NCBI GenBank assembly: GCA_965277805.1
Contig: OZ255842.1
Span: 3,584,001-3,648,000 of the forward strand
Length of the DNA: 64,000 bases
Direction: 5' to 3'
Origin: Candidatus Lustribacter sp.
Lineage (GTDB): Bacteria > Vulcanimicrobiota > Vulcanimicrobiia > Vulcanimicrobiales > Vulcanimicrobiaceae
Every line of letters starts with the position of its first letter. Position 1 is the first letter of the stretch. Below, in pieces: positions 28,780 to 32,173 of this stretch. The notes beneath the pieces were generated by a model, which saw only the letters and a program-made list of their open reading frames with translations, had not been told where the DNA came from and made no database searches. The translations under genes and the position numbers were made by a program.

Positions 28780-30270
28780 TTACGACAGGGGACGCTGGAG
28801 CGGGAAGAGGACGACGTCGCGGATCGATGCGTTGTTCGTGAGGAGCATGACCAGCCGGTCGACGCCGATGCCGATCCCGGCCGTCGGGGGCATGCCGTAT
28901 TCCAAGGCGTTCACGAAGTCCCAGTCGGGCGGCGGAACTTCGTCGTCGCCCGCCGCGCGTTCGGCGACTTGCAGCTCGAAGCGCCGCCGCTGATCGTCGG
29001 GATCGTTCAGCTCGGTGAAGGCGTTGGCGACCTCCATCGACGCGCAGAAGAGCTCGTAGCGGTCCGTGAGCTCGGGGTCGCCGGCCTTGCGCTTCGCCAG
29101 CGGCGAGAGCACGACCGGATAGTCGTGCACGAACGTCGGGTGCAATAACTCGGGCTCGACGACGCGCTCGAAAATCTTGTCGAGCGCGTGGGCGTGCGAG
29201 GGCGACGTCGGCAAACCGAACTCTTGCAAAATCTGCTGCGCGCCGCCGAACGAGAGCAGTTTCTCGCGTTCGAGGCCGCCGAATTCTTTCATCGCGTCGA
29301 GATACGCAATGCGCGCAAACGGACGCTTGAACGAGATCGCGTCTTCTTTGTACATTAGCGTGTCGCTGCCGTGTACGTCGTTCACCAGATGCGACATCAG
29401 CGCTTCGTTGAATTCCATCATCTCGTGCACGGACCAATAGGCCGCGTAAAGTTCGAGCATGGTGAACTCGGGGTTGTGCGTGGTGTCGATTCCCTCGTTG
29501 CGGAAGATCCGGCCGATCTCATAGACGCGTTCGAGGCCGCCGACGATCAGGCGCTTGAGGTTGAGCTCGGTCGCGATGCGCAGCGTCATCTCGATGTCGA
29601 GCGCGTTGACGTGCGTGATGAACGGGCGCGCGGCCGCGCCGCCGGCGATGTTGAGCAGCGTCGGCGTTTCGCACTCATAGAAACCTTGCGCGTCGATGAA
29701 GCGGCGCATCGCGGCGATGATCTTGCTGCGCTGCATGAACACGTCGCGCACGTGCGGGTTGACGATCAGATCGACGTACCGCTGGCGGTAGCGCTTTTCG
29801 ATGTCGACCAGGCCATGCCACTTGTCGGGCAGCGGCGCGAGGCCTTTGCTCAGCACCTCGAAGGACTGCACGTGCAGCGCGAGGTCGCCCATCTTCGTGC
29901 GAAACACGAAGCCGCGCGCGCCGATGAAGTCACCGCGGTCGAGCGATTTGAGCAGCGTGAAGGCTTCGCCCAGTTCTTTTTTTGCGAAGTAGAGCTGAAA
30001 GCGTCCGGTGCGGTCGGAGACGTCGGCGAACGGGCCGCGCAGGGACATCACGCGACCGGCGATTTGCCACACGTCGGATTCGGCGTGCTCTTCAGGCCCG
30101 AGCTTCCCGTACTTTTCCGCTAAGTCGCCGGCGTGCGCGGTGACGTCATAACGCGTTGCGGCAAACGGGTCGACGCCATGTGAACGAAGGGCGGCCAGGT
30201 TTGCACGCCTGGCCGCTATCAGCTCTGCTTCGCGTTTCCCGTGCTCGCCGGGATCGGTCGAATCGTCTAC
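28780..30270 (-). CDS. lysS: Lysine--tRNA ligase (class II); start unresolved
   Basis: LPDKWHGL, RYRQRYVDL, GGAAARPF, FRNEGID..HNPEFTMLE, YGMPPTAGIGIGVDRL. Homologous sequence (ELIAARRANLAALRSHGVDPF) continues in frame for about 66 codons upstream of the first GTG at 30072. Confidence 0.95.
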   Translation of the reverse strand, partial: VDDSTDPGEHGKREAELIAARRANLAALRSHGVDPFAATRYDVTAHAGDLAEKYGKLGPEEHAESDVWQIAGRVMSLRGPFADVSDRTGRFQLYFAKKELGEAFTLLKSLDRGDFIGARGFVFRTKMGDLALHVQSFEVLSKGLAPLPDKWHGLVDIEKRYRQRYVDLIVNPHVRDVFMQRSKIIAAMRRFIDAQGFYECETPTLLNIAGGAAARPFITHVNALDIEMTLRIATELNLKRLIVGGLERVYEIGRIFRNEGIDTTHNPEFTMLELYAAYWSVHEMMEFNEALMSHLVNDVHGSDTLMYKEDAISFKRPFARIAYLDAMKEFGGLEREKLLSFGGAQQILQEFGLPTSPSHAHALDKIFERVVEPELLHPTFVHDYPVVLSPLAKRKAGDPELTDRYELFCASMEVANAFTELNDPDDQRRRFELQVAERAAGDDEVPPPDWDFVNALEYGMPPTAGIGIGVDRLVMLLTNNASIRDVVLFPLQRPLS

Positions 30271-30773
30271 GATGCTTTTTTCGCCACTTTCTTCGTTGCT
30301 TTGTTGATCGCTTCGATCTTGTATTTCATCGAGCCGCGCGGCGTCGTGACGTCGACGGTCTCGCCGTTCTTGTGACCCATCAGCGCTGCGCCGACCGGCG
30401 ATTCGTTCGAGAGGCGCGCGTTCTTCGGATCGGCTTCGGCCGAACCGACGATCGTGAACTCGTGCGAGCGGCCGGAGACCAGCTCTTTCACTTTCACCGT
30501 CGCACCGAGGTGGACGGCATCGGCGACGAAGTCGCTCTGATCGATGATGCGCGCGTTGCGGATCATCGACTCGAGTTTGAGGACGCGTCCTTCCACGAAG
30601 GCCTGTTCTTGCTTCGCGTCTTCGTACTCGGCGTTTTCCGAGATGTCGCCGAACTCTTTGGCTTGGCGAATGCGTTCGTTGACTTCCCGGCGGTGGACGG
30701 TCTTCAACTCGTCGAGCTCGTCCTCGAGCTTTTTGAGTCCGTCGCGCGTCAGAATGATCTCTTTGTCGTTCAA
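30267..30773 (-). CDS. greA: Transcription elongation factor GreA
   Basis: LTRDGLKKLEDELDELK, AKEFGDISENAEYEDAK, LSNESPVGAALMG. Confidence 0.97.
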   Translation of the reverse strand: MNDKEIILTRDGLKKLEDELDELKTVHRREVNERIRQAKEFGDISENAEYEDAKQEQAFVEGRVLKLESMIRNARIIDQSDFVADAVHLGATVKVKELVSGRSHEFTIVGSAEADPKNARLSNESPVGAALMGHKNGETVDVTTPRGSMKYKIEAINKATKKVAKKAS

Positions 30774-30847
30774 AACCGACTCCTGGGACTATGCGCCCGA
30801 GCGCAACAAAACGCTGCGACTCTTAAGGAAATATCGACCGCCGCAGT

Positions 30848-32173
30848 TCAAAGCTGAGGGGCGGAGGACCTGCCCCGGGCGCGCCAGACGGCGAACGGCA
30901 CCCCCAGAATTGCCGTCACCAGCAAGAAAAGCTGGGTCGGCCGGTCGCTCTCCGCTACCGATACGGTAAGCACGCCGGCCAGCGCCAGCGTGGCGAGCGC
31001 GGGCAGGATCACGCCGTCGATCCAGGCCGTGCGTGCCAGCACGAAGATCCGCACCGCCGCCGCGGCGCTCAGCAAGAAGAGCACGCCCAGAAACAGTGCC
31101 GTGCCGCTAAGAATGAAGTCGAACGCCGCGCGCACGCTCGGAAAGAACGCACAAGCAACCAGTCCGGCGACACCCAATGCGGTGAGCAAGCCGACCGCGA
31201 ACGCCGGCTGCGCGCGCAGGTCGAGCGTGCCGAAGCGTTCCGGCAGCACGCCGTCGCGCCCCATCGCGTAGAAGCTGCGGCTGAGATAGACCAGCGTCGT
31301 TTGCAGCGATGCCGCCAGCGACACGAGCACAGTCACCGTGATCGCGATGCGCCATGCGCCGCCGCCGATCGCGTCGCCGACGTACGCCAGCGCATCGCCC
31401 TCGTGCGCGGCGAAGCCGTCGAGCGTGCCGACGCGCAGAAACGCCGTCATGCAGATCCACAGCACGGCGGCGGTCAGCAAGAGCCCGGCAAGCCCGCCCG
31501 CGCCCGGCGCAGTGCTCCCATCGTACGCCTCCTCGGCGGTCGATGCGGAAACTTCCCAACCATCGATCATCCAGATGCCGATCGCGACCGCGGCGATCAA
31601 TTCCCCCACCGAGGGCGGTGGAGCGAAGCTGGCGGCGTGCGCGGCCGGTGCGTGCAGTGCCGCTACCGTCGCCGCAACGGCAAGGAGCACCAGCTCCGCG
31701 ATCGCGAGCGCGTTCGCCGTACGCGAGGTCGGCCGCAAGCCGCCGTAGAGCAGCAGGCCCGACGCCAGCACCCAGGCCGCGCCGGCGAGCCCGTCGGCCA
31801 CCGGCGTGCTTTGCAGACCGGGCACGGCCAGCGCGAGCAGCGAGAGCGTGTACGCGCCGGCGGGCAGCGCGGTCGCGACGATCGCGAACAGGTTCGCCGC
31901 GATCAGCACCCAGGCCGCATACGCGCCGACGTACCGGCCGAACGCTAGCCGCACCCACGTGTACGCGGACCCGGCGTCGGGATAGCGCGAACCCAGCCGG
32001 CGGTACGAGATCGCGACGCACACCATGATCGCGGTGACGACGACGAGCGCGAGCGGCGTCGCGCTGCCGCCGGCCGCGACCATCGGACCGAACGCGGTTG
32101 CGAGCGAAAACGCCGGGCCGATCGCCGCGGCGGCGATCAGCAGCAGATCGCCGAAGCCGAGGACGCGGCGCAC
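30848..32173 (-). CDS. APC-family amino acid/polyamine permease
   Basis: About 12 TM segments; IGPAFSL, YPDAGSAYTW, GWEVSASTAEEA, YAMGRDGVLP. Confidence 0.88.
   Translation of the reverse strand: MRRVLGFGDLLLIAAAAIGPAFSLATAFGPMVAAGGSATPLALVVVTAIMVCVAISYRRLGSRYPDAGSAYTWVRLAFGRYVGAYAAWVLIAANLFAIVATALPAGAYTLSLLALAVPGLQSTPVADGLAGAAWVLASGLLLYGGLRPTSRTANALAIAELVLLAVAATVAALHAPAAHAASFAPPPSVGELIAAVAIGIWMIDGWEVSASTAEEAYDGSTAPGAGGLAGLLLTAAVLWICMTAFLRVGTLDGFAAHEGDALAYVGDAIGGGAWRIAITVTVLVSLAASLQTTLVYLSRSFYAMGRDGVLPERFGTLDLRAQPAFAVGLLTALGVAGLVACAFFPSVRAAFDFILSGTALFLGVLFLLSAAAAVRIFVLARTAWIDGVILPALATLALAGVLTVSVAESDRPTQLFLLVTAILGVPFAVWRARGRSSAPQL

What the first reader, a model, noticed from the sequence alone, without database searches (positions are those of the whole stretch)
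30072..30300. lysS lacks a canonical start codon; possible -1 frameshift from the Lys-rich tail of greA
Seen: the lysS frame carries typical LysRS N-terminal sequence (ELIAARRANLAALRSHGVDPF...DLAEKY) upstream of the first GTG (30072). It has no ATG/GTG/TTG back to the in-frame TAA at 30823-30825. greA ends AAA GCA ACG AAG AAA GTG GCG AAA AAA GCA TCG TAG (KATKKVAKKAS). A -1 slip on G-AAA-AAA-G (T6 run at 30276-30281) reads GAA AAA AGC ATC GTA GAC, which is the lysS frame. Weak hairpins follow (ATCG-TAGA-CGAT; TCCCG...CGGGA). Established: tRNA-Lys on A-runs is shift-prone, and lysine-starved codons promote frameshifting. Inference: LysRS is made either as a GreA-LysRS fusion, possibly tuned by Lys-tRNA supply, or from a non-canonical start (ATC, GTA, CTG or ATA) coupled to greA termination.
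Basis: partly seen in the sequence, partly recalled or inferred. Interest (0 to 1): 0.75.

Follow-up and report, generated by a model that had tools for sequence, protein, structure and literature searches.

The report
lysS gene starting at AUC codon
The only lysyl-tRNA synthetase gene of this soil bacterium has no normal start codon and most probably starts at the rare codon AUC, right at the end of the neighbouring greA gene, rather than by a frameshift that would fuse the two proteins.

Summary
On the minus strand the lysS frame has no ATG/GTG/TTG from the TAA at 30825-30823 down to GTG 30072, yet the 58 codons before that GTG are conserved LysRS sequence (pN/pS 0.05-0.37). lysS is the only LysRS gene in this one-contig genome.

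All 23 relatives outside the genus start lysS with ATG/GTG/TTG next to the greA stop, eight of them as a 4-nt overlap. Within the genus, 6 of 7 genomes and 7 of 17 informative metagenome contigs lack such a codon. They carry an AUH codon at that site in three contexts:
- ATC-N-TAG overlapping the greA stop, as in this window.
- A GGTGA ribosome-binding site followed by TAA-ATA.
- AAGGGGAAGGTT followed by ATC.

In the last two, in-frame stops or the wrong frame rule out a -1 fusion with GreA, although the A-run is kept. The A-run simply encodes GreA's Lys-rich tail.

My best reading is near-cognate AUC initiation, probably coupled to greA termination. The frameshift fusion is not supported.

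lysS is not alone. selA, a GH15 trehalase-like gene, ymdB, an S1-protein gene and probably infC show conserved ATC/ATT/ATA/CTG starts in this lineage. Public gene calls truncate many of these LysRS proteins.

The parts
28780..30273 (-). lysS (class II lysine-tRNA ligase) as proposed: 497 codons from ATC 30273 to the stop at 28782-28780
   Evidence: Open frame. NCBIfam NF001756 627.5 bits (cut-off 468) and TIGR00499 579.5 bits (cut-off 427.6). Pfam tRNA_anti-codon at residues 69-141 and tRNA-synt_2 at 158-493. Only LysRS gene in the genome.
30271..30273 (-). Proposed lysS start codon ATC (AUC), 1 nt before the greA stop codon
   Evidence: Only one-mismatch near-cognate codon between the greA overlap and the conserved GKREAE motif. 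Conserved in G000, G003, G004, G001, G006 and contigs L157-L161. Replaced by ATA (G007, L162) or another ATC behind an SD (L163) where the genes are separated. Lies one codon before the site where relatives have a GTG overlapping the stop.
30268..30270 (-). GTA codon, aligned with the GTG start of relatives that have a GTGA start/stop overlap (e.g. L012)
   Evidence: It is CTA in G001, G006 and L159-L161, so it is not conserved as a possible start.
30267..30269 (-). greA stop codon TAG
30276..30281 (-).
   Evidence: Kept in G005, G007 and L163, where a fusion is impossible, and present in G022 beside a canonical start.
30267..30773 (-). greA (transcription elongation factor GreA), 168 codons, TTG start
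   Evidence: NCBIfam NF001263 203.2 bits (cut-off 145). Pfam GreA_GreB_N and GreA_GreB. greA lies directly upstream of lysS in all 29 relatives' loci examined.
30780..30784 (-). AGGAG Shine-Dalgarno sequence 6 nt before the greA TTG start
   Evidence: Read. The 16S 3' end of the genome carries the usual CCTCC.
30073..30240 (-). Conserved LysRS N-terminal segment (GKREAELIAARRANL...DVW region) upstream of the first canonical start
   Evidence: pN/pS 0.05-0.37 in 21 of 21 pairs within the genus. Covered by the LysRS family profiles.
30070..30072 (-). First canonical start codon in the frame (GTG); the start gene finders would pick, giving a 430-aa truncated protein
   Evidence: The codon is ATC, ACC, GAG or ACG in G004, G006, G001, G007 and G005 (residues), so it is not a conserved start.
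30217..30222 (-). CTG-ATA pair, considered as alternative near-cognate starts and rejected
   Evidence: The six codons before it (GKREAE) change only synonymously across the genus, and the motif is conserved in relatives whose start lies upstream.

Best explanation
lysS is translated from the near-cognate codon AUC at 30273-30271, read by initiator fMet-tRNA, so the protein should begin with Met. This gives a full-length 497-residue LysRS. The codon lies inside the last two sense codons of greA, 1 nt before its TAG. greA and lysS are most likely one transcript, and ribosomes ending greA (which has a good AGGAG ribosome-binding site) probably restart on the AUC. The arrangement derives from an ancestral GTGA-type start/stop overlap that lost its GTG. 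Shown: the missing canonical start, its conservation, the coding constraint on the N-terminus, and an AUH codon at the start site in three different sequence contexts. Inferred: that AUC is the initiating codon, that Met is inserted, and that initiation is coupled to greA termination.
For: 1. Need for an upstream start. lysS is the only LysRS gene: 1 class II match, and no class I family PF01921 match. Its N-terminal 58 codons before GTG 30072 are under purifying selection, and the family profiles cover them.
2. Position. All 23 of 23 loci outside the genus (22 of 22 without the unpublished G015) have ATG/GTG/TTG 9-25 codons before the RRxN motif. Eight of them form a 4-nt overlap with the greA stop. 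In L012 the GTG sits exactly where this window has GTA.
3. Within the genus, 6 of 7 readable genomes lack a canonical start. Five have ATC-GTA or ATC-CTA at the greA stop. G007 has a 64-nt insert, then GGTGA, 6 nt, and ATA directly after in-frame TGA and TAA.
4. Metagenome contigs. Of 17 informative loci at 67% identity or more, 7 lack a canonical start: 5 with ATC at the overlap, 1 like G007, and L163 with the insert followed by AAGGGGAAGGTT-ATC.
5. Indels in the short N-terminal extension among these sequences are all multiples of three.
6. Other genes of the lineage show the same pattern:
- selA: ATC is the only near-cognate between an in-frame TGA and the conserved motif in 7 of 7 genus genomes, against ATG/GTG/TTG in 20 of 23 other loci.
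- GH15 trehalase-like gene: CTG in 5 genomes, aligned with GTG in G005.
- S1-protein gene: ATC/ATT in 20 of 20 loci of family f1, aligned with ATG in 6 of 6 loci of f3.
- infC: probably AGGAG, 8 nt, then ATA.
7. Hecht et al. (bioRxiv 10.1101/063800, passages read) measured AUA, AUC, AUU and CUG at 1-2% of AUG in E. coli and found Met at the N-terminus of an AUC-started protein.
8. No promoter-like or terminator-like site lies between the genes on the coding strand.
Against: There is no direct evidence of initiation: no peptide, ribosome-profiling or reporter data. In the overlap context the ATC is also fixed in part by GreA's own Ala-Ser codons, so its conservation in five closely related genomes is weak evidence on its own. 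The ribosome-binding site before the ATC in this window is poor (GGCGA, one mismatch to GGTGA), and SD use is weak across the genome, so SD spacing cannot confirm the site. AUC is a very weak start in E. coli (1-2% of AUG), which is surprising for a sole, essential synthetase. Coupling to greA is inferred from geometry only, and G007 and L163 show that lysS can apparently start at AUH without any overlap. Kin are not independent, and several metagenome contigs may be the same populations as the genomes.
Confidence: 0.75

Rival explanations
1. A programmed -1 ribosomal frameshift on G-AAA-AAA-G at the end of greA makes a GreA-LysRS fusion, which is the source of LysRS.
For: The lysS frame is -1 to greA, and an A6 run lies 3 codons before the greA stop. 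The run is conserved in the overlapping genomes and is A7 in L159 and L160. Lys codons in A-runs are known to be shift-prone (general knowledge). In the G003 assembly greA and lysS read as one frame.
Against: G007/L162 and L163 also lack a canonical start and keep the A-run, yet stops or the wrong frame make the fusion impossible. G005 and G022 keep an A-run beside a canonical start. The 0-frame motif is G AAA AAA, not a full X XXY YYZ heptamer, so the P-site tRNA would re-pair on GAA. No structure better than chance follows: z -1.63, and the only strong hairpin starts about 60 nt downstream. The G003 reading comes from a single extra base in an assembly that also splits lysS, the S1-protein gene and selA into pieces, so it is probably an error. 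No relative needs a fusion.
Confidence: 0.04
2. Translation restarts after greA termination, or starts de novo, at some other non-canonical codon. Candidates are the GTA/CTA that replaced the ancestral GTG, CTG 30222 or ATA 30219.
For: GTA sits exactly at the ancestral GTG site. CTG is conserved in all genus members. In the FMN-dependent lactate dehydrogenase gene of this genome the codon aligned with ATG/TTG/CTG of relatives is likewise CTA, at the upstream gene's stop. That hints that restart at a stop may be tolerant of the codon.
Against: GTA and CTA differ from AUG at two positions, and they are not the same codon across the five overlap genomes. The six codons before CTG vary only synonymously, and the GKREAE motif is conserved in relatives that start upstream. 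G007 and L163 have no greA stop nearby, and ATA or ATC is their only one-mismatch candidate behind an SD.
Confidence: 0.12
3. The protein really starts at GTG 30072 (a 430-aa LysRS without the N-terminal helices), as gene finders call it.
For: It is the first canonical start. Public gene calls for close relatives begin at such internal codons in 27 of the 60 closest clusters.
Against: GTG 30072 is not conserved in the genus, and the 58 codons upstream are under purifying selection. The internal 'starts' in public calls fall at scattered positions (423 to 480 aa), as expected from software picking the next ATG/GTG/TTG. About 50 profile positions of the LysRS family would be lost.
Confidence: 0.03
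4. A sequencing or assembly error, or lysS is a decaying pseudogene.
For: G000 is a single-contig assembly with 5.9% estimated contamination. Some relatives' assemblies clearly contain indels.
Against: The same junction occurs in many-contig assemblies G004, G001 and G006 and in metagenome contigs from other studies. The frame is intact over 497 codons, with strong family scores and low pN/pS. There is no second LysRS.
Confidence: 0.02

Closest known systems
AUU start codons of Escherichia coli infC (IF3) and pcnB
   Same: A conserved housekeeping gene starts at an AUH near-cognate codon read by initiator tRNA. Hecht et al. (bioRxiv 10.1101/063800, passages read) name infC and pcnB as the only two confirmed cases in E. 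coli. infC of this genome also appears to start at ATA behind AGGAG.
   Different: The codon here is AUC (AUA in one lineage), and the gene is an aminoacyl-tRNA synthetase. In this window the start lies inside the end of the upstream gene with only a poor SD. The autoregulatory logic known for infC (IF3 discriminating against its own start; recalled, not read here) has no obvious counterpart for lysS.
Translational coupling by termination-reinitiation at overlapping stop/start codons (Huber et al. 2019, PMC6728339, abstract and passages read; Yoo and RajBhandary 2008, PMC2268962, abstract read)
   Same: Co-directed genes whose stop and start overlap or nearly touch. Relatives have the classic NTGA overlap between greA and lysS. 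Here the start is 1 nt before the stop codon.
   Different: The described overlaps use ATG/GTG/TTG. I found no mention of near-cognate restart codons in the passages read or in the 2025 review PMC12548453 (term search only). Dependence on greA translation is not shown here.
dnaX-type -1 programmed ribosomal frameshifting on A AAA AAG (recalled from general knowledge, no paper read)
   Same: An A-rich run decoded by tRNA-Lys, close to the end of a gene, with the downstream frame at -1.
   Different: There is no full slippery heptamer in the 0 frame and no nearby stimulatory structure. The run is retained in relatives where a shift cannot reach lysS.

Membership tests
Class II lysine-tRNA ligase (LysS; NCBIfam TIGR00499 / NF001756) | Whole-protein score above the curated cut-off of the family model | tested here: met
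   NF001756 627.5 bits (cut-off 468) and TIGR00499 579.5 bits (cut-off 427.6), covering residues 17-495 of the ATC-started protein.
Class II lysine-tRNA ligase (LysS; NCBIfam TIGR00499 / NF001756) | N-terminal OB-fold anticodon-binding domain followed by a class II catalytic core | tested here: met
   Pfam tRNA_anti-codon at 69-141 and tRNA-synt_2 at 158-493.
GreA transcript cleavage factor | Score above cut-off, with N-terminal coiled-coil and C-terminal domains | tested here: met
   NF001263 203.2 bits (cut-off 145). Pfam GreA_GreB_N at 6-76 and GreA_GreB at 84-157.
Genes with a near-cognate (AUH) start codon, infC/pcnB type | No ATG/GTG/TTG in the interval where homologues start, although the coding sequence extends upstream of the first canonical codon | tested here: met
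Genes with a near-cognate (AUH) start codon, infC/pcnB type | A one-mismatch near-cognate codon at the homologous start position, conserved among relatives | tested here: met
   ATC in 5 genomes and 6 contigs, ATA in G007 and L162. It is the only such codon in the allowed interval.
Genes with a near-cognate (AUH) start codon, infC/pcnB type | Ribosome-binding site at the proper distance from the codon | tested here: inconclusive
   Good in G007 (GGTGA, 6 nt) and L163 (AAGGGG, 6 nt). Poor in this window (GGCGA, 7 nt). The genome uses SD weakly overall.
Genes with a near-cognate (AUH) start codon, infC/pcnB type | Protein N-terminus begins with Met at that codon | not testable with these tools
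   Needs N-terminal proteomics or initiation-site ribosome profiling.
-1 programmed ribosomal frameshift (dnaX type) | Slippery heptamer X XXY YYZ in the 0 frame | tested here: not met
   The 0 frame reads GCG AAA AAA GCA, so the heptamer is G AAA AAA and the P-site tRNA would re-pair on GAA.
-1 programmed ribosomal frameshift (dnaX type) | Stimulatory structure a few nucleotides downstream | tested here: not met
   Fold of 30290-30190: z -1.63, with 18 of 200 shuffles as good. The near stems have 4-5 pairs, and the stable hairpin begins about 60 nt downstream. No Rfam match.
-1 programmed ribosomal frameshift (dnaX type) | The shift site and an open path into the downstream frame are conserved together | tested here: not met
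   G007/L162, L163 and G005 keep the A-run, but the -1 frame is closed or is not the lysS frame.
Termination-reinitiation coupling | Stop of the upstream gene and start of the downstream gene overlap or lie within a few nucleotides on one transcript | tested here: met
   ATC 30273-30271 and TAG 30269-30267. No promoter-like or terminator-like site on the coding strand between the genes.
Termination-reinitiation coupling | Downstream translation depends on translation of the upstream gene | not testable with these tools
   Needs a reporter with an early stop in greA.

The most novel reading that the evidence does not exclude
In this bacterial order near-cognate starts (AUC, AUU, AUA, CUG) may be a regular, selected part of gene expression rather than a rare accident. 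The screen needed long stretches without any in-frame ATG/GTG/TTG. At 6.2% such codons per position, only about 3% of such genes would stay visible at 55 codons or more. The five cases found at that length would therefore extrapolate to roughly 50-400 genes per genome. The set would include translation genes (the S1 protein across a family, infC, lysS, selA). That would imply start-codon proofreading tuned differently from E. coli, or a group of genes whose output is tied to IF3 activity or to translation of the upstream gene. The initiator tRNA looks ordinary.
Probability: 0.3. Interest if true: 0.7.

Novelty: new member of a known kind. Interest (0 to 1): 0.42.

Why it matters
Standard gene finders accept only ATG/GTG/TTG. 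They therefore cut the N-terminal helices off LysRS in this genus: 27 of the 60 closest public clusters are truncated at scattered internal codons. They would do the same to selA, the S1-protein gene and others. That distorts protein catalogues, family alignments and completeness estimates for a widespread, mostly uncultured soil and peat lineage. Biologically, it shows a sole essential synthetase kept on a start codon that gives 1-2% of AUG activity in E. coli. The AUH start was kept or re-acquired after an insertion separated the genes. This suggests that low or coupled expression is tolerated or selected, and it offers natural test cases for near-cognate initiation and restart at gene overlaps in bacteria. 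I found no description of this in the held literature.

Tried and rejected
- Frameshift fusion: rejected on comparative grounds and for lack of a heptamer or structure.
- GTA as a miscalled GTG: rejected, because five assemblies and five contigs show GTA or CTA.
- CTG 30222, ATA 30219 and GTG 30072 as starts: rejected.
- A second LysRS that would make lysS dispensable: none found, neither class II nor class I PF01921. G000 is estimated 95% complete.
- An unusual initiator tRNA: rejected. The genome has three CAU tRNAs. One has the C1:A72 mismatch and three G-C pairs next to the anticodon loop, and no odd Ile or Met tRNA was found.
- A leader RNA (T-box, riboswitch): no Rfam match at E up to 1 in 29500-31500.
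- SD spacing as a genome-wide test of the ATC: abandoned, because only about 7% of 482 unambiguous starts carry AGGAG and purine enrichment is weak.
- The codon-bias screen for coding sequence upstream of the first canonical start is noisy. Of the 17 top ORFs checked with Pfam, only 5-6 show homology upstream of the first canonical codon. The rest are unresolved.
- FMN-dependent lactate dehydrogenase gene: the start stays ambiguous. The aligned codon is ATG, TTG, CTG, CTA or CTC in different genomes, and an ATC 6 codons downstream is conserved in 7 of 7.
- ymdB: my first count of 24 of 24 was wrong. The correct count is 21 of 24, and several loci outside the genus have a TTG/GTG close by that may be the true start.
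- S1-protein gene in family f2: ambiguous, because a TTG lies 3 codons after the ATC.
- G002 was left out of the lysS count because its gene is in pieces with TGA stops. L190 was left out because the contig ends before the junction.
- The paper search 'lysS, start codon, greA' returned only lyssavirus and 'great' hits.
- Depth and habitat information from the sequencing runs was not used.
Full report
**What is there**

Both genes are on the minus strand. greA runs from TTG 30773 to the stop TAG at 30269-30267, with an AGGAG 6 nt before the start. Family models identify it as GreA: NF001263 scores 203.2 bits against a cut-off of 145.

The next frame, -1 relative to greA, encodes a class II lysine-tRNA ligase. 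TIGR00499 scores 579.5 bits (cut-off 427.6) and NF001756 scores 627.5 bits (cut-off 468). This frame is open from 30822, just after TAA 30825-30823. Its first ATG/GTG/TTG is GTG 30072. Read in the lysS frame, the junction is GAA AAA AGC ATC GTA GAC. In the greA frame it is GCG AAA AAA GCA TCG TAG.

**Why the start must lie upstream of 30072**

- The LysRS family profiles begin at about residue 17-19 counted from the ATC, whereas GTG 30072 is residue 68.
- Among seven genomes of the genus, the 58 codons before that GTG have pN/pS 0.05-0.37 in 21 of 21 pairs. The GTG itself is replaced by ATC, ACC, GAG or ACG in the others.
- lysS is the only LysRS gene of this one-contig, 5.53-Mb genome. There is one class II match, the other matches being the weaker Asp/Asn-type enzyme, and no class I family match.

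**Relatives**

I searched 40 related genomes and read 29 loci. greA lies directly upstream of lysS in all of them.

Outside the genus, 23 of 23 loci have an ATG, GTG or TTG 9-25 codons before the conserved RRxN motif. One of these, L027, belongs to the unpublished genome G015; without it the count is 22 of 22. In 8 loci the start overlaps the greA stop by 4 nt. In L012 the GTG sits exactly where this window has GTA.

Inside the genus, G005 has a TTG start behind a spacer. The other six readable genomes have no canonical start:
- G000, G003 and G004 read AGC ATC GTA GAC.
- G001 and G006 read AGC ATC CTA GA.
- G007 has a 64-nt insert after the greA stop, then GGTGA, 6 nt, and ATA directly after in-frame TGA and TAA.

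G002 was left out because its gene is in pieces with stops.

A scan of metagenome contigs gave 17 informative loci at 67% identity or more. Ten have canonical starts. Seven do not:
- Five have ATC at the overlap.
- One is like G007.
- L163 keeps the greA end of this window, carries the same insert, and then reads AAGGGGAAGGTT-ATC. There lysS is in greA's own frame, and the -1 frame is closed by a stop.

The short N-terminal extension differs in length among these sequences only by whole codons. Some contigs may come from the same populations as the genomes, and close kin are not independent.

**Frameshift or AUC start**

The -1 fusion cannot be made in G007/L162 or in L163, yet these also lack a canonical start and keep the A-run. 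G005 and the distant G022 keep an A-run next to a normal start. The run therefore goes with GreA's tail (...AKKAS), not with the missing start.

The 0-frame motif G AAA AAA is not a full slippery heptamer. The fold of the junction is no better than chance (z -1.63; 18 of 200 shuffles as good). No Rfam family matches.

The one assembly in which greA and lysS read as a single frame (G003) owes this to one extra base. The same assembly also breaks lysS, selA and the S1-protein gene.

Among non-canonical candidates:
- GTA is not conserved; it is CTA in five sequences.
- The six codons before CTG 30222 change only synonymously.
- In every context the only codon one mismatch away from AUG in the allowed interval is ATC or ATA.

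Hecht et al. (bioRxiv 10.1101/063800, passages read) measured AUA, AUC, AUU and CUG at 1-2% of AUG in E. coli and recovered an N-terminal Met from an AUC start. I therefore read ATC 30273-30271 as the start codon.

Its place 1 nt before the greA stop, the ancestral NTGA overlap, the strong greA ribosome-binding site, and the lack of promoter-like or terminator-like sites between the genes all suggest restart by ribosomes finishing greA. This mechanism is described in Huber et al. 2019 (PMC6728339, abstract and passages read) and Yoo and RajBhandary 2008 (PMC2268962, abstract read). The coupling is inferred, not shown, and G007 and L163 show that an SD-led AUH start without overlap also occurs.

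**Sequence quality**

Contigs of four runs from four studies bridge the junction: X1 record 1 with 0 differences, and X4, X5 and X6 records with 9, 10 and 2 differences. No indel is listed, and no difference appears between 30149 and 30330 among the rows shown. However, 57 rows were not shown, and X1 may be the source sample.

**lysS is not alone**

I ran a codon-bias screen for coding sequence upstream of the first canonical start. lysS ranks 13th of 2572 gene-like ORFs. Pfam and NCBIfam show homology upstream of the first canonical codon in several others. Comparative reading gave the following:

| Gene | Finding |
|---|---|
| selA | ATC is the only near-cognate between an in-frame TGA and the conserved motif in 7 of 7 genus genomes; 20 of 23 other loci have ATG/GTG/TTG |
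| GH15 trehalase-like gene | CTG in 5 genomes, aligned with GTG in G005 |
| ymdB-family phosphoesterase | ATC or ATA at the upstream gene's stop in 21 of 24 loci; the geometry ATC-C-TAA in this genome matches the ATC-C-TAG of lysS in G001 and G006; some loci outside the genus have a nearby TTG/GTG |
| Four-domain S1-protein gene | ATC/ATT in 20 of 20 loci of family f1 (19 of 19 without G015), usually behind a purine-rich tract, aligned with ATG in 6 of 6 loci of f3 (5 of 5 without the unpublished G036); best matches are to ribosomal protein S1 models but below their cut-offs; family f2 is ambiguous |
| infC | Probably starts at ATA, 8 nt after AGGAG |
| FMN-dependent lactate dehydrogenase gene | Unresolved |

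The initiator tRNA is ordinary and the anti-SD sequence is the usual one.

In-frame ATG/GTG/TTG make up 6.2% of codons. Cases visible to my screen are therefore a small fraction of any such genes. A figure of 50-400 per genome is a rough extrapolation, not a count.

**Public annotation and literature**

Of the 60 closest LysRS clusters in the protein collection, 27 begin at scattered internal codons (423-480 aa) and 33 are full length. Sources name somewhat more distant hits (74-79% identity) as Candidatus Velthaea and Candidatus Elarobacter. I recall these as Eremiobacterota, but that comes from no call.

Searches of the held literature found no description of such starts in this group:
- non-canonical start codon, AUC, bacteria, IF3;
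- Eremiobacterota with start codon (2 unrelated papers);
- rpsA or S1 with AUC/AUU/ATC start codon.

Supplements were not consulted. Hecht et al.'s supplementary tables of annotated start codons might list comparable cases.

Earlier notes of this scan report recurrent AUH or ACG starts in several archaea, and a restart without a start codon in an archaeal virus-like element. I did not test them. They only show that the pattern recurs.

**Verdict**

The frameshift fusion is not supported. A near-cognate AUC start, probably coupled to greA termination, is the best explanation (0.75). It is a new member of a known kind, of moderate interest. The recurrence across conserved genes of the lineage is the part most worth following.

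Noticed in passing
G000:C1:4060880-4062034 (-), locus L033/L105: A four-domain S1-protein gene has no canonical start for 85 codons. Its best NCBIfam matches are to 30S ribosomal protein S1, but below their cut-offs. ATT (this genus) or ATC (14 other genera of the family) aligns with the ATG of a sister family, usually behind a purine-rich tract. Two loci have an in-frame GTG 15 codons upstream, and family f2 has a TTG 3 codons downstream. The counts include the unpublished G015 and G036.
   Followed up: partly
G000:C1:4921388-4922752 (+), locus L045/L051: selA starts at an ATC four codons after an in-frame TGA, inside the 3' end of the upstream gene. This is conserved in 7 of 7 genomes of the genus. 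Three other genera (G020, G022, G013) also lack a canonical start there.
   Followed up: partly
G000:C1:2658050-2658847 (-), locus L044/L081: A ymdB-family metallophosphoesterase gene has ATC-C-TAA at the upstream gene's stop, the same geometry as ATC-C-TAG at lysS in G001 and G006. Eight other genera have ATA overlapping a TAG stop (A-TAG).
   Followed up: partly
G000:C1:4618619-4620397 (-), locus L041/L135: A GH15 trehalase-like gene begins at CTG in five genomes of the genus where G005 has GTG.
   Followed up: partly
G000:C1:1630258-1631472 (+), locus L036/L146: FMN-dependent L-lactate dehydrogenase gene. The codon aligned with the family's N-terminus is ATG, TTG, CTG, CTA or CTC in different genomes of the genus, and in this genome it overlaps the upstream gene's TAA. 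The real start is unclear.
   Followed up: partly
G000:C1:3912084-3912200 (+), locus L050: infC probably starts at ATA, 8 nt after AGGAG. Two in-frame TTG codons lie just upstream and contain that AGGAG.
   Followed up: no
L029 (G007), L006 (G005), L162, L163: between greA and lysS: A roughly 64-nt element with imperfect inverted ends (GTGTGGTCC...GGTCCACAC) is inserted directly after the greA stop in some members of the genus. After it lysS starts with TTG, ATA or ATC. In G007 a 6-codon ATG-started mini-ORF ends 2 nt after the ATA.
   Followed up: partly
G000 whole genome: Stop codon use among 2572 gene-like ORFs is TGA 1058, TAG 820 and TAA 694. The TAG share seems unusually high to me for a 64% G+C genome (recalled expectation). 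A change of an upstream stop from TGA to TAG or TAA would destroy an NTGA-type overlapping start, as seems to have happened at lysS.
   Followed up: no
G000:C1:2823928-2825319 (-), locus L049: rho has 62-81 codons of coding-like, Arg-rich sequence upstream of its first ATG, with no canonical start. ATC and CTG are present. The Pfam Rho_N domain begins 4 residues before that ATG.
   Followed up: no
L008, G003 and G002 assemblies: Few-contig assemblies G003 and G002 carry frameshifts and in-frame stops in lysS, selA and the S1-protein gene. These look like indel errors, so apparent fusions or splits in them should not be trusted.
   Followed up: no
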